Assembly: GCA_947629405.1 (NCBI GenBank)
Contig: CANRDL010000004.1
Coordinates: 4,098 to 68,097, forward strand
Reading direction: 5' to 3'
DNA length: 64,000 nt
From: an uncultured Bacilli bacterium
GTDB lineage: Bacteria; Bacillota_I; Bacilli_A; RF39; UBA660
Positions within the stretch are counted from its first letter, which is position 1. Each line of letters opens with the position of its first letter. Shown one piece after another: positions 5,819-21,202 of this stretch. The position numbers and the translations under genes are program-made. Under the pieces are notes generated by a model. The model made no database searches, was not told the DNA's origin, and worked only from the letters and a program-made list of their open reading frames with translations.

Positions 5819-7309
5819 ATGCAAAATAAAAGAGGCTTTGTTTTCGTGGAAACAATTGTCGTTATTTCTGTTGTATCAATTGCTTTAATTTCTTTATTTA
5901 CATTATTTTATAGTGTATATAATGAAGAACAAAAAAGGTTAAGTTTTGATAATGTAGAAGATTTATATGCTACTTATTTTGTAAAAAAATATTTAGAAGA
6001 AAATAACATAAATAGATGTTTTATTAATTATAATAGTGATGATTTATTTAAAGAAATTAATATGGATTTAAATAATACAGTCACATATACTATTGAGTTA
6101 AGACTTGATGGTCACTCTGGACCATTAACATTTGGGCCTAATAGTTTTTCAGATGGCTCAATTAAAACTGTTTCAATTGCTTATAATATGAATGCTCCAG
6201 TTTTAACATATACTGAGACAGGTAAAGATATTCAAATTTGTTCTTTAGGTACTTGTATTGATGGTAGTGATTCTGTAATGCTGCAATCTTCTTTTCAAAG
6301 GATAAAAAATGGAAACCATTATGATTATATTCAACCATTAACTTTTACCATAACTGTTTCTTCATCAGATAAATGTACTATTCTTCATGACAATGATAAA
6401 ACTAATGGTGAATCTTTTAATACAATGAAAGATAAATTTAATATAAAAAATTTATATCTTGTTACAGGAGATATAACTAATTTAAAATTAAATAAAGCAA
6501 AAAACTTATTAAGTGCTAATGTAATTGATTATATTAAAACCATGTCTAAAAATAGTTCTGGATATTATTTAGTTTCCGAATTTGAAAATAATAATGTAGC
6601 AAGTGTCAAACTAACAACAGATATTAGTAATACAACCGCATTCTCCATACTTTCTGCTAATGATAGTTTAATGAATGCTACTAATACTAATAATGACGGA
6701 ATAACATATGTTCATGGGAATAATCAAAATAATTATGTAAATTTTGCTAATAAATCTTGGCGAATATTAAGAATTAATGAAGATGGTAGTATAAGATTAA
6801 TTTTAGATAAAAAATTAAAACCAATAAAATATGATAAAATTGATGATGAATTAAATACTTTTTATAATAAGTTATCTTCATATAGTGACTATATAGTTTT
6901 ATCAAATTATTGTGAAGATAATTGTAATGATAATAAATGTAATAATATTACCACTAACAATTTTTCATTTGCATGTGATAATTTAGCTTATTATGGTCAA
7001 GCTTCATGGAATGAGATTATGTCTACTTCAAGTAGTTTAGGAAATATTAAAGGACAATCCAGATATCAAAGTTTTCTTTCAGACTTTAATGATAATTTTT
7101 GGATTGGAGCAAAATCAAATAAAGTACCATATTATGTTACACCAAGTTCTGATAACTCAGCTGGTATAAATTATTCTTATATTTATGGTCCCAATATTCC
7201 TATTAATAGTACAACTGCTTATATAAGACCGGTAATAAGTATTAAAGGTAGTGTGGTATTAACTGGTAATGGAAGTAGTAAAAATCCATATCAAATTAAA
7301 AAGGAATAA
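5819..7309 (+). CDS. Large type IV prepilin-type protein (class III signal G|FVFVE) with about 460-aa C-terminal domain
   Basis: 496 aa. MQNKRG|FVFVETIVVISVV is the canonical prepilin cleavage/methylation motif with Glu at +5. AAGGAGG RBS. Contains a Cys-rich segment (YCEDNCNDNKCNN...FACDN). Confidence 0.7.
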   Translation: MQNKRGFVFVETIVVISVVSIALISLFTLFYSVYNEEQKRLSFDNVEDLYATYFVKKYLEENNINRCFINYNSDDLFKEINMDLNNTVTYTIELRLDGHSGPLTFGPNSFSDGSIKTVSIAYNMNAPVLTYTETGKDIQICSLGTCIDGSDSVMLQSSFQRIKNGNHYDYIQPLTFTITVSSSDKCTILHDNDKTNGESFNTMKDKFNIKNLYLVTGDITNLKLNKAKNLLSANVIDYIKTMSKNSSGYYLVSEFENNNVASVKLTTDISNTTAFSILSANDSLMNATNTNNDGITYVHGNNQNNYVNFANKSWRILRINEDGSIRLILDKKLKPIKYDKIDDELNTFYNKLSSYSDYIVLSNYCEDNCNDNKCNNITTNNFSFACDNLAYYGQASWNEIMSTSSSLGNIKGQSRYQSFLSDFNDNFWIGAKSNKVPYYVTPSSDNSAGINYSYIYGPNIPINSTTAYIRPVISIKGSVVLTGNGSSKNPYQIKKE

Positions 7310-7788: not shown

Positions 7789-8706
7789 AATGGCAAATAC
7801 TACATGTATAAATCGAGATAAGATAAAGTATTTTAAAGAAATATTTTCTTCATTTAAAATACTTTTTATTTGAAAAATTATACAAATACCTGAAAATGAT
7901 AAAAAAGTAATGGCTAAAATTTCTTTTAAATATAAGGAAATATTTAAAGTTTGTAAATTAAATAATCCATTGCTCATTTCTAGTAATCCACTTATTAATA
8001 CTTTAAAAAAATTATTTGTAGGAATTAGTTGAATAATAATATTAGACAATATAGAAAATATAATCATACTCGAAAATATTAATAACATTGTTTTAATAGC
8101 ATCAAAAATTATAGAAGTTAAAATTTCATTTAATTTTTTAGTTTTTTGATTAATATTTGTTAAAATATTTTTAAAATTTAATTTATTATTTTTATTACAT
8201 TTATTAAAATTACGAAAGATAAGTCCGATAAAAATATTAGATACATACAAGCTAAAAATAATTTTTAAGACAATATTTAAGTCTCTAAAAATAGGAAAGG
8301 TAGAATTAATAATAAATATGGGATTAGCAAAAAAAGAAAAACATAATATTTTTTCCGCATCTTTTTTAGTAATATAATTATCTTTAACAAGTTGAATTGT
8401 ATATTTAGCATTTGATGGACTTCCCGTTAAAAGAGACATAATAAATATATATGCTGTTTTTGGATTAATTTTAAATATATGATAAAATGGATAAGAAAAA
8501 AAATAAGAAAGTATTTCTACAAAGCCATAATTTATGAGTATAGATGATAATATAAACATAGGAAAAAGAGAGGGAAAAACTTGAGTAATAAATAATTTAG
8601 ATGTATTTATTATATTTTTTTTAATAAGAAAATTACTCTTAATAAGAAAAAATAATATAATTAATAATAGTAAAATAATAGTTAAATTTTTAATATTTTT
8701 TTTCAT
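7765..8706 (-). CDS. ylbJ: YlbJ-like sporulation integral membrane protein (nucleoside-recognition/Gate-type domain)
   Basis: 313 aa, polytopic. The FPSLFPMFILSSIL...LLTGSPSNAKYT segment resembles YlbJ. Divergent from a ylbL-like gene, as in the B. subtilis ylb region. Confidence 0.55.
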   Translation of the reverse strand: MKKNIKNLTIILLLLIILFFLIKSNFLIKKNIINTSKLFITQVFPSLFPMFILSSILINYGFVEILSYFFSYPFYHIFKINPKTAYIFIMSLLTGSPSNAKYTIQLVKDNYITKKDAEKILCFSFFANPIFIINSTFPIFRDLNIVLKIIFSLYVSNIFIGLIFRNFNKCNKNNKLNFKNILTNINQKTKKLNEILTSIIFDAIKTMLLIFSSMIIFSILSNIIIQLIPTNNFFKVLISGLLEMSNGLFNLQTLNISLYLKEILAITFLSFSGICIIFQIKSILNEENISLKYFILSRFIHVVFAILTFSIII

Positions 8707-13881: not shown

Positions 13882-15067
13882 TAATTATCAAACAATAACT
13901 GAATTTACCAGAAAATTAAAGCTTAAGTTTGATAATGATTTAGAATTAAAATATGTTTTTTTAAAAGGTGAAATTTCTAATTTTAAAGCTCATAGCCGCG
14001 GTCACTATTATTTTTCTTTAAAAGATGATAATGCTAAGATAAATGCTATAATGTTTTCATTTCAAACTAGAAATATAAATTTTTTACCAAAAGATGGTAT
14101 GAAAGTATTTGTTGAAGGAAAAATCAGCGTATATGAAGCTTCGGGAAGTTATCAAATATATGTAGAAAAAATGTATGAAGATGGCGTAGGCGATTTATAT
14201 AAAAAATATGAAGAACTTAAGAAAAAATTAGCCAATTTAGGAGTTTTTGATGATAAATATAAGAAGCCTATTCCTAAATATCCAACCAACATTGGTGTAA
14301 TTACAGCTCCAACTGGTGCAGCGATAAGAGATATTTTAAGTACAATTAAAAGAAGATATAATATTTGTAATACTTATTTATTTCCTGCCCTTGTTCAAGG
14401 TGATGGGGCAAAAGAAAGTATTGTAAAACAAATTAAAAATGCTGAAAAAAATAATCTTGATGTAATAATATTAGGTCGAGGTGGAGGTTCAATTGAAGAT
14501 TTGTGGGCCTTTAATGAAGAAATTGTCGCAAGAGCAATTTTTGATTGTAAAATTCCTATAATAAGTGCAGTTGGTCATGAAGTTGATTTTACAATTGCTG
14601 ATTTTGTTGCTGATTTAAGAGCACCAACTCCAACGGGAGCGGCAGAAATGGCTGTACCTAATATTAATGATGTAAGATTTCATATTGAAACATTAGAAAA
14701 TATGTTAAATAAAAATATTTATAATTTATTTAAAAGTAAACAAGAAAAATTAGATTATATATTAAACTCATATATTTTAAAAAATCCTTTAAGTTTATAT
14801 GAAATAAAAGAACAGAAATTATCTGTGACTTTGGAAAATTTACAATTAAATATTAAAAATGTTTTAAAAAATAAAACTCATAATTTTGAATTATTAAATA
14901 GTAAATTGCAAATTTTAAATCCACTAGCTATATTAAATAAAGGTTACAGCGTAGTCTTTAAAGATGGTGAAATAATTAAGGATACTAAAAAAATTAAAAT
15001 AGGTGATGAAATTAAAATAAGATTTTCTAAAGGTAATTTAAAAGCAGAAGTAAAGGAGAAGGAATAA
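13874..15067 (+). CDS. xseA: Exodeoxyribonuclease VII large subunit
   Basis: 397 aa. OB-fold N-terminus (GEISNFKAHSRGHYYFSLKD), core GRGGGSIEDLWAFNEE, and AVGHEVDFTI. Confidence 0.95.
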   Translation: MNDNYQTITEFTRKLKLKFDNDLELKYVFLKGEISNFKAHSRGHYYFSLKDDNAKINAIMFSFQTRNINFLPKDGMKVFVEGKISVYEASGSYQIYVEKMYEDGVGDLYKKYEELKKKLANLGVFDDKYKKPIPKYPTNIGVITAPTGAAIRDILSTIKRRYNICNTYLFPALVQGDGAKESIVKQIKNAEKNNLDVIILGRGGGSIEDLWAFNEEIVARAIFDCKIPIISAVGHEVDFTIADFVADLRAPTPTGAAEMAVPNINDVRFHIETLENMLNKNIYNLFKSKQEKLDYILNSYILKNPLSLYEIKEQKLSVTLENLQLNIKNVLKNKTHNFELLNSKLQILNPLAILNKGYSVVFKDGEIIKDTKKIKIGDEIKIRFSKGNLKAEVKEKE

Positions 15068-15303
15068 TGGAAGAAAAAAAGATTAATTTTGAAACAAATT
15101 TAGAAGAATTGGAAAAAATTGTTAAAGAACTGGAAAATGGCGATGTATCAATCGACGATGCTATTGAAAAGTACACTAAGGCAATGAAACTTGCTAAAAG
15201 TTGTAGTGACAAATTAAATGAAGCCAATGAATCAGTAAGTAAAATCTTAAAAGAAGATGGTACTTTTGAAGATTTTCAAGAAATGGAAGAAAATGATAGA
15301 TAA
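15067..15303 (+). CDS. xseB: Exodeoxyribonuclease VII small subunit
   Basis: 78 aa. FETNLEELEKIVKELENGDVSIDDAIEKYTKAMKL is typical of XseB. Its start overlaps the xseA stop (TAATG). Confidence 0.9.
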   Translation: MEEKKINFETNLEELEKIVKELENGDVSIDDAIEKYTKAMKLAKSCSDKLNEANESVSKILKEDGTFEDFQEMEENDR

Positions 15304-15328
15304 TATGAAAAATATTATCTTTTTATTT
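15298..15328 (+). terminator. Rho-independent terminator of the nusB-xseAB unit
   Basis: AGATAATAT-gaaaa-ATATTATCT followed by TTTTATTT. Overlaps the xseB stop. Confidence 0.65.
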
Positions 15329-15359
15329 ACATAAAAAATTTAAAACTTTCCACAAAAAC

Positions 15360-15388
15360 TTGACTGGGGGGGGGACCTATTATATAAT
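15360..15388 (+). promoter_or_regulatory. Consensus sigma-A promoter with a G9 homopolymer in the spacer
   Basis: TTGACT (15360-15365), a 17-nt spacer whose first nine bases are G (15366-15374), then TATAAT (15383-15388). Lies 27 nt upstream of the ATG at 15415. Confidence 0.7.
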
Positions 15389-15414
15389 GCAACTAAGAAG
15401 GGAAGTAATAAAAA

Positions 15415-16623
15415 ATGGGATTTATTAAATCCTTTGGTGGAGCATTAGGTGGAACTTTTGCAGACCAATGGAAAGATTTTTATGCACCAAAACCTGGTGT
15501 ACCAGCAACTGCTGGATTATTTCCAGCTGTACCACAGGGTACTAATGCTGGAAGAGGTGAGAACACAAAAAGTTCTGAAAATATAATTACAAATGGAAGT
15601 AAAATTGTTGTACCAGAAGGAACAGCATTAATTACAATTCAAAATGGTCAAATTACAGGTTTAATTGCCGAACCAGGCGGATTTGAATTTAGATCTGATG
15701 ACCAAAATTCACAATCTATGTTTGCTGGTGATGGAATGTTTTCATCTACTCTAAAAACATCTTGGGAAAGATTTAAATTTGGTGGACAACCAGGGACTCA
15801 ACAATTAGCATTTTATGTAAATTTAAAAGAGATTCCTAATAATAAATTTGGTACACAATCGGAAATTTATTGGGATGATGCTTACTTTGGAACTCAAGTA
15901 GGAGCAGTTACTAGAGGTACATATACTTTAAAAATTGTAGATCCACTATTATTTGTTAAAAATTTTGTACCGGCAACTTATTTGCAACCTAATTCACCAG
16001 TATTTGATTTTGCGGATATGGATAATGATGCAGGTAATCAATTATTTAACGAAGTAGTTGGTACTTTATCAGCAGCTTTTTCCAATTACACAAATGATCC
16101 TAGTAAAGGAAATCGTATTTCAAAAATTCAAGGAGATCAAATTGGTTTTGCTCAAGCAATGGCTCAAGCTGTCGAAGATGCTTATCACTGGAAAACAGAA
16201 CGTGGTTTAGAAATTGTAAAAACTGCAATTTTATCTATTGAATATGATGAAGATACTAAAGAATTAATGAAAGATGTTAAAAAGGCAGATGCATTATCAG
16301 GAGCAAGAGGTAATGCTTTTATGCAACAAGCTGCTGCAAGAGGTATGCAAGCTGCTGGAGAAAATGGTGGAGGAGCTAGTATGGCTTTCATGGGAATGGG
16401 CATGAATGCTGCTAATGGAATGATGGGAGCAACCCAACAACAACCAACTCAATCATCATATCAACCTGGATTTGGGCAAACGCAACAACCCGCTGCTCAA
16501 ACCCAAAATTCTAATGAACAAGACCCAATGACAATTTTAAGCGAAAAGAAAAAATTATTAGATGCTGGTCTAATCACTCAAGAAGATTATGATAAATTAA
16601 AAAATCAATTATTGGGAATTTAA
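15415..16623 (+). CDS. SPFH-related 'virion core protein'-type (COG4260/YdjI-like) protein with A/G/M/Q-rich linker and C-terminal SHOCT domain
   Basis: 402 aa. Core resembles the YdjI-type SPFH family (GSKIVVPEGTALITIQNGQI...FYVNLKEIPNNKFGT...GTYTLKIVDPLLF). C-terminal LSEKKKLLDAGLITQEDYDKLKNQLL is a SHOCT motif. GAAGGGAAG RBS. Confidence 0.65.
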   Translation: MGFIKSFGGALGGTFADQWKDFYAPKPGVPATAGLFPAVPQGTNAGRGENTKSSENIITNGSKIVVPEGTALITIQNGQITGLIAEPGGFEFRSDDQNSQSMFAGDGMFSSTLKTSWERFKFGGQPGTQQLAFYVNLKEIPNNKFGTQSEIYWDDAYFGTQVGAVTRGTYTLKIVDPLLFVKNFVPATYLQPNSPVFDFADMDNDAGNQLFNEVVGTLSAAFSNYTNDPSKGNRISKIQGDQIGFAQAMAQAVEDAYHWKTERGLEIVKTAILSIEYDEDTKELMKDVKKADALSGARGNAFMQQAAARGMQAAGENGGGASMAFMGMGMNAANGMMGATQQQPTQSSYQPGFGQTQQPAAQTQNSNEQDPMTILSEKKKLLDAGLITQEDYDKLKNQLLGI

Positions 16624-16626
16624 TTT

Positions 16627-18135
16627 ATGCAAAATAGTTATAGTGAAAATATAGTTCCTACAAATAACAATAATAACCAATCTAATGCCTCTACTATCAT
16701 TAAAACTGATTTAGGCGCTAAGGATGGTCAAAATAAATGTCCAAAATGTGGTTCTACGGATATATCTTTAAATGTTAATAATGGAAAATTAAGGTGCAAT
16801 TTTTGTAGACATGAATTTGAACCAGAAAAATTAGATAACATGCAACAAGATTTGAGTCAGTTACAAGGACAAGTGATGGGCTCTGGAGCTACTGATATTG
16901 TTGCTGATACTAAAGATATCGTGACTTTTAAATGTAGTAGTTGTGGGGCTGAAATAGTAATTGATACTGCTTCATCTACTCAAGCCAGATGTCATTGGTG
17001 TCGAAATATATTATCAGTAAATCAACAAATTTCAAATGGAAGTATACCTGATGTTGTATTACCATTTGGTATATCTAAAGATGAAGCTAAAATTGAAATT
17101 GAAAAATTTGTTGGTAAAAGAAAATTTTTTGCTCATCCTAAATTTAAACAAGAATTTACAACAGATAATATAATGGGTGTATATTTACCTTACATGATAA
17201 TTGATGCAAATGCTCATGTTAATCTCGTTGGAAATGGAGAACATTTAACAAGAACATATTATCGTGGCAGTGGAGAAAATAGAAGCACTTATTATGATGC
17301 TGATCTTTATCATGTAGAAAGAGAATTTGATTTAATAATCCAAGGTCTAACGGTTGAATCAAGTACAGAAAAATTAAATAATTCATCAGCAAATGCAACA
17401 AATAATGTTATTAATGCCATAATGCCATTTGATTTAGAAAATTGTGTTAAATTTAATGCAAATTATTTGAAAGGTTATACTTCAGAAAAGCGTGATATAA
17501 ATATTGACCAGTTAAGGCCTTTAGTAGATAAACAATCTAAAGATATAGCAAAATTTGCAGCTAACAATACTTTAAAACAATATGATCGTGGAGTTGCTTG
17601 GCATAATGAACAGCTTGATGTAAAAGGACAACAATGGAAAGCGGCATATTTACCAGTTTGGCTATATAGCTATTTACAAGTAAGTGGCGAAAAGAAAGTA
17701 TTACATTATGTTGCCGTAAATGCAAGAACTAAAGAAACAATGGGAAGTGTACCTATACATATTCCAAAATTATTAGGTATTTCCTTCTTAGTGGAAATTT
17801 TAGGGATTATAGCAATGTTATTTATAGATTTTGATTATAATTGGGCTTTTTTACTTGCAGGATTTATCTACTTCTTTGTAATGTTTACTCGTTATCGTAA
17901 TTCAAATGCCAGACATAAATATGAAACAGAGACAAAAACTAATTTAACTAATTTACGAAAAATTGATAATTTTATTAAAACGGAAACAGGATTAACAAAT
18001 TCGAGAATAAATGGAGCAAATAATACTTCGATAAGTGGTCAAGGATTAGGTAGTCAAATATTAAACTCATTTGTAGATCAAAATCCAGTTGCTAATTTAA
18101 TTAAAGATAGCACAAATCAGAAAGGAGAAAAATAA
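16627..18135 (+). CDS. YdjG-like TFIIB-type double zinc-ribbon protein with C-terminal TM hairpin
   Basis: 502 aa. Two ribbons (CPKCGS...CNFCRH and CSSCGA...CHWCRN), a globular domain of about 250 aa, two adjacent TM helices (ISFLVEILGIIAMLFIDFDYNWAFLLAGFIYFFVMF), and a polar tail. Confidence 0.6.
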   Translation: MQNSYSENIVPTNNNNNQSNASTIIKTDLGAKDGQNKCPKCGSTDISLNVNNGKLRCNFCRHEFEPEKLDNMQQDLSQLQGQVMGSGATDIVADTKDIVTFKCSSCGAEIVIDTASSTQARCHWCRNILSVNQQISNGSIPDVVLPFGISKDEAKIEIEKFVGKRKFFAHPKFKQEFTTDNIMGVYLPYMIIDANAHVNLVGNGEHLTRTYYRGSGENRSTYYDADLYHVEREFDLIIQGLTVESSTEKLNNSSANATNNVINAIMPFDLENCVKFNANYLKGYTSEKRDINIDQLRPLVDKQSKDIAKFAANNTLKQYDRGVAWHNEQLDVKGQQWKAAYLPVWLYSYLQVSGEKKVLHYVAVNARTKETMGSVPIHIPKLLGISFLVEILGIIAMLFIDFDYNWAFLLAGFIYFFVMFTRYRNSNARHKYETETKTNLTNLRKIDNFIKTETGLTNSRINGANNTSISGQGLGSQILNSFVDQNPVANLIKDSTNQKGEK

Positions 18136-19007
18136 TGAATTGTTCAAATTGTGGTACATATAACAATCCTCAATCAAAAGTTTGTATTAAATGTGGTAAT
18201 ATTTTAAATGCTGATAATCTAAATCAACCAACTGAATTAGATAAAAATATTAATTCACAACTAAATTATCAACAACTACCCCAAAATCAAATGCAACAAC
18301 CAATAAATCAGCAACCAATAAATAATGTACAAACAGTTCAATCTGCTAATGTCAGTACATCACCTTTAAATTATCTTAAATATTTAATTACTATATTACT
18401 CAAGCCATTTCAATGTTATAAGGAGGAAGAGAGTAAACTGAATAATGGAAAAAACTCTATTATACTAACATTGATTATTACGGTAATTATGACATTATTA
18501 AATTTGATTCAAACGATTATATCTACTGTAAGAGTAGTAAATTATAGTTGGACAGAAAAAAATACTTATACATGGCAATGGGACAATTTAAAAAACATAA
18601 ATTGGTTAGAAGTTATTGGTAAAAACTTTTTAATTTATATTTGTATTATTTTAGCTATTACTATTGTTTTCTATTTAGGAAGTTTAGTAGTAAAAAAACA
18701 ATTAAGTTTTATTAAATCATTATCTATATCAGCAACTTCTGTTATTCCAGCAGTATGGGGTACAATGATTTTATCACCAATATTTGGAATGATTTGGGAT
18801 AAATTAAGTTTTGTATTTATGATTATTGGTTTTATATATTCTTTAATAATATTATATGAATTTATAAATAGTGAATTAAATTTAGAAAGGGACAAAAAAA
18901 TATATTTTAATCTTATTTGCTTCGGGATACTTATTATTGCTGGATATTATGCTTATATGAAACTATTTATGAGCGGATTAGATAGTATTTTAGGATTACT
19001 TAAATAA
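18135..19007 (+). CDS. N-terminal zinc-ribbon, Q-rich linker, polytopic (Yip1-like?) membrane protein
   Basis: 290 aa. MNCSNCGT...CIKCGN ribbon, Q/N/P-rich linker, then about 5 TM helices. Its start overlaps the upstream stop (TAATG). AAAGGAGAA RBS. Confidence 0.6.
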   Translation: MNCSNCGTYNNPQSKVCIKCGNILNADNLNQPTELDKNINSQLNYQQLPQNQMQQPINQQPINNVQTVQSANVSTSPLNYLKYLITILLKPFQCYKEEESKLNNGKNSIILTLIITVIMTLLNLIQTIISTVRVVNYSWTEKNTYTWQWDNLKNINWLEVIGKNFLIYICIILAITIVFYLGSLVVKKQLSFIKSLSISATSVIPAVWGTMILSPIFGMIWDKLSFVFMIIGFIYSLIILYEFINSELNLERDKKIYFNLICFGILIIAGYYAYMKLFMSGLDSILGLLK

Positions 19008-19008
19008 T

Positions 19009-20511
19009 ATGAATAATAATTATAATAATTTAAATCAAAATAATATGAATTTGAACTATAATAATACAAATATTAATGATAATAATCAAAATATTATTTC
19101 TTCAAATAATGATTTTTCTAATGATAATAACAAATCAAAAAGAAAAAAATTACTTGTTGTTGGTATTTTATTAGTATTAGCAATAGTTTTATTTATAGGA
19201 AGTATATTTTTGAAAAGCAAAAATGCCAATATAAAAAAATCGGAAAATGTAAATCTTATATTTGATGAAGAAGCTTTAATAAAAGTAAAAAAAGATAATA
19301 AATATGGATATATAGATACAAATGGGAAATTTGTTTTAGATCCAATTTATAAAGAGGCTAAAGACTTTTATGGAAATTATACTATTGTAGAAACAAAAGA
19401 TGAAATATATCAGGTAATCGATAAAAAAGGCAAGGCTAAATTTCAAAGTAAATATGCTGCTGATATTGATTATAACTCTGAAAATAACATTTGGATACTT
19501 AATCATCAACTGTATGATAGTGCTTTAAATAAAATATCTCCCGACAATATTAATGTTCGTTATGGAAATTATGAATATTTAAAATGGGAAGATGTAAATG
19601 AGAAGTCTGCCGGAATAATTAATTCTTCTGGGAAGATTACTTATACTTATAAATATCAAAATGATGAAAATTATTTTGATATGACTCCATCAAAAATTAC
19701 TTCAATTTTAGATGAACAATATTGTATTGTAAATGTGGATAGTGGAAAATATGAAAAATATGGAATTGTAAATTGTGCTACTGGAAAATTGGTATATGAT
19801 TATTCAAAATATTATATATCAGATCGTGGTGATAATATATTTAAAATTACTAATGAAGATTCCCAGGACTCTGTATCTTTAATTTATATTAAAGATAATA
19901 AAATTGCATATCAAACTAATAGTGAAAGTGATACTTATGAGTATGATATTCTTACAAAATATATACAAATTTTTAATGAAGATAAAAATGATTATTTTTA
20001 TTTAGATATTCAAACAGGCAAAATTTTATCGGATGCTCCTAATGATGATATTAATGATGAGTGGGAAGTTTTAACTGGCATTACTAAAAAAGGTTGCGGT
20101 GAATCTTATGGTCTTGTAAAGGGAAAAAAGAAAATATTATCTTGTGAATGGGATAGTATTGATTATTTTGGAAATTTATTATATCAGTATTTAGCATCTA
20201 AGGGTAAAAAATATGTTATGACTACAAAAGATGATAAAAGCTTTATAATTAATTTAACAAATGGAGAAACGGTAGCAAAGTTTAATGCTAATAAGATTTA
20301 TAATAATGAAGAAAGTATATTTGTTTTTTATGAAGATTCTTCTATAAATAAAAAGGTTATTTATAATCTTATTACTGGAAAAACAATGGAAACTGATATT
20401 GATAATAATGTAAGACTTAACTCAAATTATATAACTATTTATGAAAACAATAAAATTAATTTCTATAATACAAATTTTAAATTAATATATTCAGCGGAGG
20501 ATGTAATATGA
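19009..20511 (+). CDS. Membrane-anchored WG-repeat (KWG-type beta-propeller-like) protein with Asn-rich N-terminus
   Basis: 500 aa. N-rich cytoplasmic head, one TM (LLVVGILLVLAIVLFIGSIFL), and repeated units of the type KYGYIDTNGKFVLDPIYKEAKDF, KYGIVNCATGKLVYDY and SYGLVKGKKKILSCEWDSIDYF. Confidence 0.6.
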   Translation: MNNNYNNLNQNNMNLNYNNTNINDNNQNIISSNNDFSNDNNKSKRKKLLVVGILLVLAIVLFIGSIFLKSKNANIKKSENVNLIFDEEALIKVKKDNKYGYIDTNGKFVLDPIYKEAKDFYGNYTIVETKDEIYQVIDKKGKAKFQSKYAADIDYNSENNIWILNHQLYDSALNKISPDNINVRYGNYEYLKWEDVNEKSAGIINSSGKITYTYKYQNDENYFDMTPSKITSILDEQYCIVNVDSGKYEKYGIVNCATGKLVYDYSKYYISDRGDNIFKITNEDSQDSVSLIYIKDNKIAYQTNSESDTYEYDILTKYIQIFNEDKNDYFYLDIQTGKILSDAPNDDINDEWEVLTGITKKGCGESYGLVKGKKKILSCEWDSIDYFGNLLYQYLASKGKKYVMTTKDDKSFIINLTNGETVAKFNANKIYNNEESIFVFYEDSSINKKVIYNLITGKTMETDIDNNVRLNSNYITIYENNKINFYNTNFKLIYSAEDVI

Positions 20512-21128
20512 ATTATATAAGAAATAAAAGAGTATTAGCTCTAACAGGAATAATAACTCTTATTTTAGGAACAATACTACCATATTTTACTTTTTCTCTT
20601 CTTGGTTATTCTCAATCAATATCTTTATGGAAATATTGGGAAGGAAAGTTAATTATAATTTTAACATTGGTAAATGCTTTATTTATATTTAAAGATTATA
20701 TTGAAAAATATCTACCACAATTATTTACAACAAATCTTGGAAAAAAAATAGCAAATTTATCAAATCCTAAAGTATCTTTAATACCAACAATATTAGTTGT
20801 AGGATTTGTTATTTACTTAAATATAAAATTTGATTTTAATACTGAATATTTAAAAAATGGTCTTGGTTTTTATTTACTATGGTTAGGCATTATATGTTTA
20901 GTGATACATGCTATTATATATAAAAAGCCATCTGAAGCATTAGATAATGTTAATCATGAATATAATAATCAAAATGTTAATGTACAACAAAATTTTCAAC
21001 AATCAGTACAATCACAAACGCAACAATTAACTCAAAATGAATTAGTAAACAAAAAATTATGTCCAAAATGTGGTAACCAAGTAGATGAAACAGCAACCCA
21101 ATGTTTTATGTGTGGAAATAAATTTTAA
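20508..21128 (+). CDS. Polytopic membrane protein with Q-rich linker and C-terminal zinc-ribbon
   Basis: 206 aa. Four or more TM helices, then NQNVNVQQNFQQSVQSQTQQLTQ, then CPKCGN...CFMCGN. Overlaps the upstream gene by 4 nt (ATGA). GGAGGA RBS. Confidence 0.6.
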   Translation: MNYIRNKRVLALTGIITLILGTILPYFTFSLLGYSQSISLWKYWEGKLIIILTLVNALFIFKDYIEKYLPQLFTTNLGKKIANLSNPKVSLIPTILVVGFVIYLNIKFDFNTEYLKNGLGFYLLWLGIICLVIHAIIYKKPSEALDNVNHEYNNQNVNVQQNFQQSVQSQTQQLTQNELVNKKLCPKCGNQVDETATQCFMCGNKF

Positions 21129-21170
21129 TATTAAATAGGAATATTCTTCCAATTATAGATTTTAAATTGA

Positions 21171-21202
21171 AAAAAGACAACCAATAATTGTCTTTTTTTT
21201 TG
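21171..21202 (+). terminator. Rho-independent terminator of the SPFH/zinc-ribbon operon
   Basis: AAAAAGACAA-ccaataa-TTGTCTTTTT followed by a T-run. Confidence 0.7.

What the first reader, a model, noticed from the sequence alone, without database searches (positions are those of the whole stretch)
15415..21128. Five-gene translationally coupled SPFH / zinc-ribbon / WG-repeat membrane operon with no described function
The operon is bounded by terminators at 15298-15328 and 21171-21202. Its gene junctions are a 3-nt gap, a TAATG overlap, a 1-nt gap and an ATGA overlap, so it is probably a single co-translated unit. The genes are as follows. (1) A COG4260/YdjI-type SPFH-related protein with a SHOCT tail. 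(2) A YdjG-like protein with two TFIIB-type zinc ribbons and a TM hairpin. (3) A zinc-ribbon, Q-linker, roughly 5-TM protein. (4) An N-rich, single-TM, WG-repeat protein. (5) A polytopic-TM, Q-linker, zinc-ribbon protein. Only the first two have characterised relatives, in the B. subtilis pspA-ydjG-ydjH-ydjI operon, where YdjI tethers PspA to the membrane. Here there is no pspA or ydjH, the order is inverted, and three further membrane proteins are attached. This looks like a distinct membrane-associated assembly. It could act in envelope-stress sensing or repair, or in phage or surface interaction. I cannot name it as a known system.
Basis: partly seen in the sequence, partly recalled or inferred. 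Interest (0 to 1): 0.8.

Follow-up and report, generated by a model that had tools for sequence, protein, structure and literature searches.

The report
SPFH scaffold operon with variable surface-protein cargo
The five genes are real and co-transcribed, but only the first two (a known type of membrane-scaffold pair related to Bacillus YdjI/YdjG) are constant across hundreds of uncultured gut bacteria, while genes 3-5 are one draw from a fast-changing set of zinc-ribbon-tagged membrane and surface proteins that tends to sit behind that pair.

Summary
Five same-strand ORFs lie at exactly the stated coordinates with the stated junctions. They are bounded by two AT-rich hairpin terminators and driven by a near-consensus promoter.

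g1 (Band_7_1 SPFH + SHOCT) and g2 (two zinc ribbons, conserved domain, TM hairpin) are clear homologues of the YdjI/YdjG (SamI/SamG) dyad. An Enterococcus SPFH-YdjG-like-TPM operon has the same gene order.

The g1-g2 pair is adjacent in 79 of 79 related species loci at 65-90% identity, better conserved than the neighbouring UvrC-like gene. Genes 3-5 are not a fixed part of it. The closest syntenic relative has g1-g2 and nothing else. Across 69 species loci the downstream region is a modular array in a conserved order, A(g3)-B(g4)-C(g5)-G-D(VWA)-E-F/H, and only six other species carry A-B-C. The g4-g5 pair also occurs without the core, inside a capsule locus.

Terminal-zinc-ribbon membrane proteins are about 10-fold enriched downstream of the core.

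Best reading: a YdjI/YdjG-type submembrane scaffold coupled to a variable repertoire of ZnR-tagged envelope and surface proteins. This is a new variant of a known kind. The mechanism is inferred, not shown.

The parts
15298..15328 (+). Hairpin plus U-tract terminator of the upstream xseA-xseB unit; 5' boundary of the operon
   Evidence: Sequence. RNA fold -8 kcal/mol, z -3.3 against shuffles. Upstream genes carry Exonuc_VII_L and Exonuc_VII_S Pfam labels.
15360..15388 (+). Sigma-70-type promoter TTGACT-17-TATAAT with a G9 run (15366-15374) filling the spacer
   Evidence: (11 of 12 matches). G/C runs of 7 or more are otherwise absent from 1.37 Mb of related 24%-GC DNA, except 4 further cases, 3 of which are also promoters of this operon.
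15415..16623 (+). g1: soluble SPFH protein (Band_7_1, aa 55-306), G/M/Q-rich linker, SHOCT tail (aa 379-400); YdjI/SamI-type
   Evidence: Pfam. No TM segment. 32% identity, E 1e-52, to the SPFH protein of the E. gallinarum SPFH-YdjG-like-TPM operon. 51-93% identical in 79 species loci.
16627..18135 (+). g2: YdjG/SamG-like membrane anchor with two zinc ribbons (aa 38-60 and 103-125), a conserved cytoplasmic domain (aa ~135-380), a TM hairpin (aa 382-422) and a conserved tail
   Evidence: 28% identity over aa 36-400, E 6e-41, to the E. gallinarum YdjG-like protein. 3793 family representatives at E<=1e-3. At least 568 species have a relative confirmed by tblastn (E<=1e-3); the best 80 listed are 65-89% identical.
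18135..19007 (+). g3 (array family A): N-terminal zinc ribbon (aa 3-20), Q-rich linker, 5-TM Yip1 domain (aa 88-269)
   Evidence: Pfam Yip1 35.5 bits, cut-off 28.6. TM count. Family present in 24 of 69 loci, nearly always directly after g2. 26 of 27 members have the N-terminal ribbon.
19009..20511 (+). g4 (family B): N-rich cytoplasmic N-terminus, one TM (aa 48-66), all-beta WG-repeat ectodomain (aa ~85-500)
   Evidence: Pfam WG_beta_rep. AF2 model mean pLDDT 85. Foldseek finds only generic beta-propellers, TM-score 0.15-0.29. About 49 full-length relatives at 30-60% identity, many with an N-terminal Zn_Ribbon_1.
20508..21128 (+). g5 (family C): 4 TM, Q-rich linker, C-terminal zinc ribbon (aa 185-202)
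   Evidence: Family C in 12 of 69 loci and its ribbon-less form C' in 8. C and C' are one family (hhalign probability 100%). Travels with g4 in a capsule locus without the core.
21169..21202 (+). Hairpin plus U-tract terminator; 3' boundary of the operon
   Evidence: Sequence. Fold -9.6 kcal/mol, z -2.8.

Best explanation
g1-g2 is a lineage-wide, slowly evolving YdjI/YdjG (SamI/SamG)-type module. A soluble SPFH oligomer (g1) is held at the inner face of the membrane by a tail-anchored protein with two zinc ribbons (g2).

In this clade of uncultured gut Bacilli the TPM/YdjH partner and PspA are usually absent from the locus. The slot behind g2 is instead filled by a modular, rapidly turning-over array of membrane proteins. 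These are small polytopic proteins (g3/Yip1-type, g5, family E) and single-pass proteins with large ectodomains (g4 WG beta-repeats; elsewhere VWA, Ig-like, LRR). Most carry a cytoplasmic zinc ribbon on a Q/N-rich linker.

The window's operon is the core plus the first three array slots, made as one transcript.

Proposed mechanism: the SPFH/g2 platform organises, stabilises or monitors these envelope and surface proteins from the cytoplasmic side, with the ribbon tags as the likely docking elements.

Shown: homology of the core, invariant g1-g2 linkage, conserved order and enrichment of the array, and predicted topologies.

Inferred: physical interaction between core and array, the docking role of the ribbons, and the physiological output (envelope maintenance or surface organisation).
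For: Core homology comes, with an operon in E. gallinarum that also has TPM, and from published descriptions of YdjG, YdjH and YdjI (PMC11237479, PMC8581546).

g1-g2 are adjacent in 79 of 79 loci at 51-93% (g1) and 65-89% (g2) identity, while the UvrC-like neighbour falls to 45-49%. A subset of g2 proteins carries a partial SPFH domain fused at the N-terminus.

In the array, 47 of 69 loci have at least one of the recurring families, in the conserved order A-B-C-G-D-E-F/H. In 42 of the 69 the first of these families after g2 is a small polytopic membrane protein.

Terminal-ZnR+TM ORFs number 96 of 511 downstream against 7 of 325 upstream of the core (odds ratio 10.5, p 7e-15, not corrected for phylogeny).

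The families share only the ribbon (hhalign), which points to a common tag on unrelated bodies.

Some relatives keep a TPM gene in the same slot (L069-L074). This ties the array position to the known third component.

The SamGHI preprint shows PspA-independent roles of the SPFH protein in restraining its membrane partners.
Against: Twenty-two of 69 loci have the core with none of these families, and about 10 are plainly bicistronic. The syntenic relative L036 lacks genes 3-5.

g4 relatives occur alone (L098) or with g5 in a capsule locus without the core (L094), so the coupling is facultative in both directions.

The window's own g4 has no zinc ribbon, and family C' has none either.

N-terminal zinc-ribbon membrane proteins are common in Firmicutes in general (my knowledge). 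The enrichment test uses related, non-independent loci.

The g2 structure model failed (pLDDT 50), so the NTF2-like assignment of its central domain rests on the literature.
Confidence: 0.5

Rival explanations
1. Insertion hot spot. g1-g2 is a self-sufficient housekeeping dyad. Genes 3-5 and the other array families are functionally unrelated surface and membrane genes that accumulate and turn over in a permissive site downstream. They are co-transcribed only by read-through.
For: The core occurs alone in many species, and the closest syntenic relative lacks genes 3-5. Array composition differs even among relatives with 84-89% g2 identity (L003-L007). g4 and g5 function elsewhere without the core. 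g3-g5 have background GC (19-25%) while g1-g2 are at 29-36%. Other surface proteins (Big_2, LRR, pilin-like VWA) sit in the same place in other lineages.
Against: The order of families is conserved across species, and the first slot is nearly always a small polytopic membrane protein. Start/stop overlaps in the window leave no room for separate regulation. The enrichment is specific to ribbon-tagged membrane proteins. A TPM gene, the known third partner, occupies the same slot in some relatives.
Confidence: 0.22
2. Classical Psp-type envelope-stress module. As in B. subtilis, the only role of g1-g2 is to recruit a PspA/IM30 protein encoded elsewhere in the genome to damaged membrane. Genes 3-5 act as stress sensors replacing YdjH.
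For: Homology of g1/g2 to YdjI/YdjG. In B. subtilis YdjG/YdjH recruit YdjI, which recruits PspA (PMC8581546). Related abbreviated band-7 operons are suggested to work with PspA encoded elsewhere (PMC11237479).
Against: No pspA was seen in the window or in any precomputed Pfam label of the neighbourhoods examined. The rest of the genome could not be searched. g1 has SHOCT instead of the C-terminal ribbon of YdjI. The SamGHI preprint finds PspA dispensable for the main phenotype. Large adhesin-like ectodomains (WG, VWA, LRR, Ig) are not typical stress sensors.
Confidence: 0.15
3. Anti-phage or phage-exclusion system. An SPFH/zinc-ribbon membrane complex with a hypervariable, horizontally exchanged cargo senses or blocks phage at the envelope.
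For: High turnover of the array. Possible mosaic exchange between strains. A weak PADLOC hit of the g2 ribbons to candidate PDC-S64 (E 2.8e-5). A poly-G promoter typical of contingency loci.
Against: No PADLOC hit for g1, g3, g4 or g5, and the g2 hit covers only the ribbons. PHROGs gives only short ribbon or SHOCT matches. There is no nuclease, NTPase, protease or other effector domain. The core is near-universal and slowly evolving in the clade, unlike defence genes. The flanks are housekeeping genes, not a defence island.
Confidence: 0.05

Closest known systems
B. subtilis pspA-ydjGHI (pspA-samGHI) operon: YdjI/SamI (SPFH), YdjG/SamG (double zinc ribbon membrane protein), YdjH/SamH (TPM)
   Same: A soluble Band_7_1 SPFH protein is encoded next to a protein with two N-terminal zinc ribbons, a conserved globular domain and a C-terminal membrane anchor. 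Homology is shown through the E. gallinarum SPFH-YdjG-like-TPM operon. The membrane partners are expected to recruit the SPFH protein.
   Different: There is no pspA and no TPM/ydjH in the operon or window. The order is SPFH first. g1 ends in SHOCT rather than a zinc ribbon. g2 has a second TM and a conserved ~80-aa tail. Three extra membrane proteins are translationally coupled. No sigma-W context is known.
Band_7_1 + SHOCT proteins (PF13421 + PF09851), the commonest SHOCT architecture
   Same: g1 has exactly this architecture (PMC3581485).
   Different: Nothing about g1 itself differs. The family is uncharacterised functionally, and the SHOCT score here is below Pfam's cut-off (23.8 against 27 bits).
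Other SPFH scaffold-client systems (HflK/C-FtsH, QmcA-YbbJ/NfeD, flotillin microdomains)
   Same: The working principle proposed here is the same: an SPFH oligomer organises or restrains specific membrane proteins encoded alongside it.
   Different: g1 has no TM anchor of its own. There is no protease or NfeD partner. The clients are proposed to be ribbon-tagged surface proteins. No structural or biochemical evidence exists for this system.
Yip1-domain membrane proteins (PF04893) and WG_beta_rep proteins (PF14903)
   Same: g3 and g4 pass the Pfam thresholds for these families.
   Different: Both families are functionally undefined in bacteria. g3 adds an N-terminal ribbon and Q-linker. The g4 subfamily is small (about 49 relatives) and mostly confined to this array.

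Membership tests
YdjI/SamI-type SPFH (Pfam Band_7_1, PF13421) | Band_7_1 domain above Pfam gathering score | tested here: met
   36.4 bits against a cut-off of 24.
YdjI/SamI-type SPFH (Pfam Band_7_1, PF13421) | No membrane anchor of its own (soluble SPFH) | tested here: met
   No hydrophobic 19-mer above threshold; maximum hydropathy 1.07.
YdjI/SamI-type SPFH (Pfam Band_7_1, PF13421) | C-terminal zinc ribbon after a low-complexity region | tested here: not met
   No CxxC anywhere in g1. The C-terminus matches SHOCT instead. The Enterococcus homologue has DZR there.
YdjI/SamI-type SPFH (Pfam Band_7_1, PF13421) | Encoded next to a YdjG-like gene | tested here: met
   3-nt gap to g2. Adjacent in 79 of 79 related loci.
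YdjI/SamI-type SPFH (Pfam Band_7_1, PF13421) | Recruits PspA to the membrane | not testable with these tools
The rest of the genome is unavailable.
YdjG/SamG-like | Two N-terminal zinc ribbons | tested here: met
   C38-C41/C57-C60 and C103-C106/C122-C125, invariant in 24 relatives. Zn_Ribbon_TF hit is sub-threshold.
YdjG/SamG-like | Conserved central domain homologous to that of YdjG-type proteins in SPFH-TPM operons | tested here: met
   BLASTP E 6e-41 over aa 36-400 with the E. gallinarum protein encoded between the SPFH and TPM genes.
YdjG/SamG-like | Central domain has an NTF2-like (YpeB-related) fold, as described by Ravi et al. 2024 | tested here: inconclusive
   AF2 model mean pLDDT 49.8. 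No PDB sequence relative.
YdjG/SamG-like | C-terminal TM anchor | tested here: met
   TM at aa 382-400 aligns with the Enterococcus C-terminal TM. g2 adds a second helix (aa 405-422) and a tail.
pspA-ydjGHI operon as a whole | pspA and a TPM-domain gene (ydjH) in the same operon | tested here: not met
   Neither is in the operon or the window. TPM is present in the same slot in relatives L069-L074.
Yip1 family (PF04893), for g3 | Yip1 domain above gathering score | tested here: met
   35.5 bits against 28.6, aa 88-269.
WG_beta_rep (PF14903), for g4 | WG repeat above gathering score, in an all-beta repeat domain | tested here: met
   37.3 bits against 25.6, one repeat recognised. The model is all-beta with pLDDT above 90 in the ectodomain.
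Known or candidate anti-phage defence systems (PADLOC-DB 2.0) | Protein profile matches to system components | tested here: not met
   Only the g2 ribbons match PDC-S64, at E 2.8e-5. g1, g3, g4 and g5 have no hit.
Phase-variable (contingency) promoter | Homopolymer tract within the -35/-10 spacer | tested here: met
   G9 at 15366-15374 between TTGACT and TATAAT. The same design occurs in L022, L032 and L059.
Phase-variable (contingency) promoter | Tract length varies between cells or strains | tested here: not met
   G9 in all 4 assemblies of this species that carry the tract, and G9 in 3 of the L022 species. These are consensus contigs at low coverage only; raw reads were not available.

The most novel reading that the evidence does not exclude
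The SPFH/YdjG dyad is a cytoplasmic docking hub for a tag-based surface-protein system. Short cytoplasmic tags (a zinc ribbon, or in some relatives a YDPxTGQP peptide) on Q/N-rich linkers would recruit a rapidly exchanged repertoire of single-pass ectodomain proteins into SPFH-organised membrane patches. That repertoire includes WG beta-repeats, VWA and, in other species, membrane-anchored EF-Tu domain fragments. In some species the whole operon would be switched by slippage of a poly-G tract in the promoter spacer. This would be a previously undescribed way for reduced-genome gut Bacilli to organise and vary their cell surface.
Probability: 0.15. Interest if true: 0.75.

Novelty: new variant of a known kind. 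Interest (0 to 1): 0.5.

Why it matters
SPFH proteins are universal but their clients are known in only a few cases, such as FtsH and NfeD. The YdjI/YdjG (SamI/SamG) branch has only been studied in B. subtilis, as part of the Psp response.

Here the same dyad is present in at least 568 species genomes of uncultured gut Bacilli and is among their slowly evolving genes. It has no PspA or TPM in cis. It is followed by a recurring but highly variable set of ribbon-tagged membrane and surface proteins.

If the coupling is physical, three things follow. It would give a candidate client set for this SPFH branch. It would give a function to the very common 'N-terminal zinc ribbon + TM' architecture of Firmicute membrane proteins. 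It would also give a handle on how these unculturable gut bacteria build and vary their surface.

If the coupling is not physical, the finding reduces to a conserved two-gene SPFH module next to a variable surface-gene site.

Tried and rejected
- AF2 of g2 with 24 close homologues gave pLDDT 49.8, so no fold search was run on it.
- PDB sequence and profile searches for g1 and g2 found only generic zinc ribbons.
- NCBIfam gave no usable family.
- PADLOC and PHROGs gave nothing beyond ribbon or SHOCT fragments.
- tblastn against phage records found only unannotated metagenomic or doubtful 'phage' records.
- Foldseek of the good g4 model against PDB and BFVD gave only generic beta-propellers with TM-score 0.3 or below. 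No specific relative was found.
- Rfam found nothing in the operon or its leader, nor in the g1 leaders of six relatives. One further Rfam call failed on a size limit.
- Poly-G phase variation: I compared all available assemblies of two species and saw no length differences.
- A metagenome scan for CTTGACT+G8 returned 120 mostly unrelated contigs, none with g1.
- Exact-protein look-ups for g1 and for the downstream 329-aa protein found nothing.
- My first family-HMM script timed out. The later HMMs for A/D, E and H were partly cross-contaminated through ribbons and low-complexity regions. I therefore separated families by length and checked them with Pfam and hhalign.
- Apparent recombination mosaics (L001, L085) were not used as evidence. 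Both breakpoints sit in the ultra-conserved 5' end of g1 on ~2x coverage contigs, so they may be assembly chimeras.
- Taxonomy look-ups of named relatives were uninformative.


Full report
**1. What is in the sequence**

Five + strand ORFs occupy 15415-21128 with the stated junctions: a 3-nt gap, a TAATG overlap, a 1-nt gap and an ATGA overlap.
- Shine-Dalgarno-like motifs precede g1, g3 and g5. Weaker ones precede g2 and g4.
- Upstream, the xseA-xseB pair (Pfam labels) ends in an all-A/T hairpin with a U tract at 15298-15328.
- A second hairpin/U-tract lies at 21169-21202.
- The consensus scanner missed both because it requires G-C pairs. Both fold better than shuffled controls (z -3.3 and -2.8).
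- A TTGACT-17-TATAAT promoter (11 of 12) sits at 15360-15388. Its spacer is largely a G9 run.
- The window is 24% G+C. g1-g2 are at 29-36% and g3-g5 at 19-25%.

**2. Domain content**

| Gene | Content |
|---|---|
| g1 | Band_7_1 SPFH above threshold; G/M/Q-rich linker; SHOCT-like tail; no TM; no cysteine motif |
| g2 | Two CxxC-CxxC ribbons; conserved ~250-aa region; TM hairpin (aa 382-422); ~80-aa tail |
| g3 | N-terminal ribbon; Q-rich linker; five-TM domain that passes the Pfam Yip1 threshold |
| g4 | N-rich N-terminus with a K-rich stretch before a single TM; WG_beta_rep |
| g5 | Four TM; Q-rich linker; C-terminal ribbon |

An AF2 model of g4 built on 47 homologues is confident (mean pLDDT 85). 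It shows an all-beta repeat ectodomain. Foldseek against PDB and BFVD finds only generic beta-propellers at low TM-score.

By the positive-inside rule, and because many g4 relatives carry an N-terminal zinc ribbon, the WG domain should be extracellular. This topology is inferred.

**3. The core is a YdjI/YdjG-type dyad**

An Enterococcus gallinarum replicon encodes, in this order, an SPFH protein (Band_7_1 plus C-terminal double ribbon), a 374-aa protein and a TPM-domain protein.
- g1 matches the SPFH protein at 32% identity (E 1e-52). g2 matches the middle protein from its first ribbon to its TM at 28% identity (E 6e-41).
- This is the component set of B. subtilis ydjG-ydjH-ydjI as described in the literature. 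YdjG has two ribbons, an NTF2-like domain and a TM. YdjH is a TPM protein. YdjI is band-7 plus a ribbon (PMC11237479).
- In B. subtilis the membrane proteins YdjG and YdjH recruit soluble YdjI, which recruits PspA (PMC8581546).
- A Comamonas plasmid also has an SPFH gene followed by a TFIIB-type ribbon gene. The SPFH-first order is therefore common.
- Band_7_1+SHOCT is the most frequent SHOCT architecture (PMC3581485).
- The g2 family is large: 3793 representatives of 50%-identity clusters at E<=1e-3.

**4. Conservation and linkage**

A scan of one genome per GTDB species found at least 568 species with a g2 relative confirmed by tblastn (E<=1e-3). The best 80 were fetched and are 65-89% identical. 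Nearly all are uncultured gut 'Bacilli/Tenericutes/Clostridia' MAGs.

In all 79 loci with room, g1 lies directly upstream of g2. g1 and g2 stay at about 70-75% identity where the UvrC-like neighbour has dropped to 45-49% (L026, L045).

Genes 3-5 behave differently.
- L036 has the same synteny (xseA-xseB-g1-g2, then the 334-aa ORF and the UvrC-like ORF) at 78-90% identity. It has no g3-g5.
- The closest relatives by g2 (84-89%) each have a different downstream content.

**5. The array**

Family HMMs, Pfam and hhalign show that the DNA after g2 draws on recurring families in a conserved order.

| Slot | Family |
|---|---|
| A | g3-type: ZnR + Yip1 |
| B | g4-type: TM + WG |
| C | g5-type: 4TM + ZnR. 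A ribbon-less form C' is found in one lineage |
| G | Small single-TM protein |
| D | ~930 aa: N-ZnR + TM + TSP3 + VWA |
| E | ~190 aa: 3TM + C-ZnR |
| F or H | F is TM + Tim44-like + ZnR. H is a TM-anchored EF-Tu fragment |

Counts over 69 species loci with at least 3 kb after g2:
- 22 have none of these families.
- 9 have E only, and 7 have C' only.
- Six other species have A-B-C followed by more genes.
- The window alone stops after A-B-C.

In other lineages the same position holds:
- a second ribbon protein plus a TPM protein (L069-L074);
- LemA-DUF2207;
- signal-peptide surface proteins with Big_2, VWA/pilin-Ig or LRR domains.

Terminal-ribbon membrane ORFs make up 96 of 511 ORFs within 10 kb downstream of the core, against 7 of 325 upstream (odds ratio 10.5). 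The loci are phylogenetically related, so the p-value is only indicative.

The families share nothing but the ribbon.

Conversely, g4 relatives are few (about 49) and fast-evolving (30-60% identity). Most are in such arrays. However, one sits alone (L098), and one sits with a g5 homologue inside a capsule-polysaccharide locus without any SPFH gene (L094).

Core and array are therefore associated but separable.

**6. How it most likely works**

Established knowledge: SPFH proteins oligomerise and organise or restrain specific membrane partners. In B. subtilis the YdjG/YdjH membrane proteins recruit YdjI, and YdjI (SamI) restrains SamG-SamH independently of PspA (PMC8581546; bioRxiv 10.64898/2026.02.06.704340).

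Shown here:
- The same dyad is invariant in this clade.
- The slot of the third component is filled by alternative small polytopic membrane proteins.
- These are followed by ribbon-tagged single-pass proteins with adhesin-like ectodomains.
- The window expresses core plus three of these from one promoter.

Inferred:
- g2 anchors a g1 assembly under the membrane.
- The array proteins are its partners or clients.
- The cytoplasmic ribbons on flexible Q/N-rich linkers are docking elements.
- The output is organisation, stabilisation or surveillance of envelope and surface proteins.

Some g2 proteins carry a fused partial SPFH domain, which is consistent with g1-g2 contact.

Confidence is about 0.9 that the core is a YdjI/YdjG homologue, about 0.6 that the array is functionally coupled to it, and about 0.25 for ribbon docking specifically.

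**7. Rivals**

The main rival is that the site behind g1-g2 is simply a permissive place where surface genes accumulate. Support for it:
- core-only loci;
- rapid turnover of the array;
- independent occurrence of g4/g5;
- background GC of g3-g5.

Against it:
- the conserved order of families;
- translational coupling in the window;
- the specificity of the enrichment;
- the TPM gene in the same slot in some relatives.

A purely Psp-type role with pspA elsewhere cannot be excluded, because the rest of the genome is not available.

A defence role has almost no support.

**8. Comparison and novelty**

The core is a member of a known kind. It differs from YdjI in the SHOCT tail, and from YdjG in the TM hairpin plus tail.

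The coupling to a modular array of ribbon-tagged membrane and surface proteins is not described in the papers found. Nor is the absence of PspA and TPM in cis in most of a large clade.

I rate this a new variant of a known kind, with interest 0.5. The anatomy and distribution are solid and somewhat unexpected. The function of genes 3-5 and their link to the core remain inference from gene neighbourhood.

**9. Side observations**

Poly-G promoters:
- In 1.37 Mb of related DNA, G/C runs of 7 or more occur five distinct times. All lie in promoter-like context.
- Four drive this operon: the window, L022, L032 and L059.
- The spacers are 17, 16, 14 and 20 nt. This is the design of slippage-controlled promoters.
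- The run length was identical in all assemblies compared.

Other observations:
- Strains with an identical xseB carry a different promoter region without the tract.
- Most other species have a 5' leader bracketed by GAATAG...CTATTC, with no Rfam match.
- Family H consists of membrane-anchored EF-Tu fragments, either G domain + D3 or D2 + D3. They often carry an N-terminal YDPxTGQP motif.

Noticed in passing
window 15360-15388 (G9 at 15366-15374); also L022 ~8585-8615, L032 ~6090-6120, L059 ~30-75, L066 ~13369: Poly-G (9-10) tract inside the -35/-10 spacer. In 1.37 Mb of ~24%-GC related DNA, only five distinct G/C runs of 7 or more exist. Four of them are promoters of the g1 operon, in four species, with spacers of 17, 16, 14 and 20 nt. 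This is the design of a slippage-controlled promoter. Run length was constant (G9) in every assembly compared.
   Followed up: partly
L088, L089, L091 against window 15329-15414: Contigs with an identical XseB protein and ~97.5% identical flanking DNA carry a completely different, 37-nt longer promoter/leader region without the G tract. It resembles that of L036. The promoter region is therefore polymorphic within the species.
   Followed up: partly
L085 and L001 against window 14893-19900: Mosaic identity. L085 is 99-100% identical through xseA/xseB and the promoter, then 79-93% through g1-g2. L001 has an unrelated upstream region (dcd genes) but ~100% identical g1-g4. This is either recombination or transfer of the operon between co-resident strains, or assembly chimeras joined at the ultra-conserved 5' end of g1 (contigs at ~2x coverage).
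   Followed up: partly
upstream of g1 in about 40 of 73 related loci (e.g. L029 431-489, L026 8646-8705, L069 8714-8749); absent from the window: A conserved 5' leader starts near GAATAG(G) just after a TATAAT box and ends in ACTATTC 20-75 nt before the start codon. The two ends are reverse complements, with co-varying extensions (L029 GAATAGGAGT...ACTCCATTC) and a loop of 10-90 nt. There was no Rfam match in the six loci scanned.
   Followed up: partly
L012 10104-11456 and 11477-12556; L016 12461-13696; L018 7977-8735; L019 10489-11400; L006 17514-18440; L033 6510-8597; L054, L062, L040, L028, L078: Membrane-anchored EF-Tu fragments at the end of (or just before) the array. The layout is a Q/N-rich N-terminus, one TM, an N-rich linker, then either EF-Tu G domain + domain 3 or domain 2 + domain 3 (Pfam E 1e-14 to 1e-47). 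The predicted N-in topology would put the EF-Tu domains outside the cell.
   Followed up: partly
N-termini of family H and some family B proteins (L012, L016, L019, L006, L054, L057, L062): A short conserved N-terminal motif, (Y/F)DPxTGQP(I/L), occupies the position where sister proteins carry a zinc ribbon. It occurs in only 10 of 2042 ORFs in the loci. It is possibly an alternative cytoplasmic tag.
   Followed up: partly
P0016, P0044, P0107, P0111 (605-616 aa); L027 1951-3766: A subset of g2 homologues carries a ~115-aa N-terminal extension that Pfam labels Band_7_1, a partial SPFH domain. This is a fusion of the two core families.
   Followed up: partly
L094 9001-11274: A g4 homologue (ZnR + WG) and a g5 homologue (family C, E 1.5e-81) sit as a pair inside a capsule/exopolysaccharide locus (glycosyltransferases, flippase, LytR-CpsA-Psr, Wzz, CpsB) with no SPFH or g2 gene nearby. 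g4-g5 is thus a separable sub-module linked to envelope polymers.
   Followed up: partly
window 15400-18100 against 18100-21100: g1-g2 are at 29-36% G+C, while g3-g5 and the flanks are at 19-26%. This fits strong amino-acid constraint on the core. It could also mean a different history for the accessory genes.
   Followed up: no
L059 395-1927: In one species a 510-aa signal-peptide protein with a C-terminal TM anchor (no Pfam hit) is inserted between the poly-G promoter and g1. It ends 18 nt before g1, so surface-protein genes can also join the operon on the 5' side.
   Followed up: no
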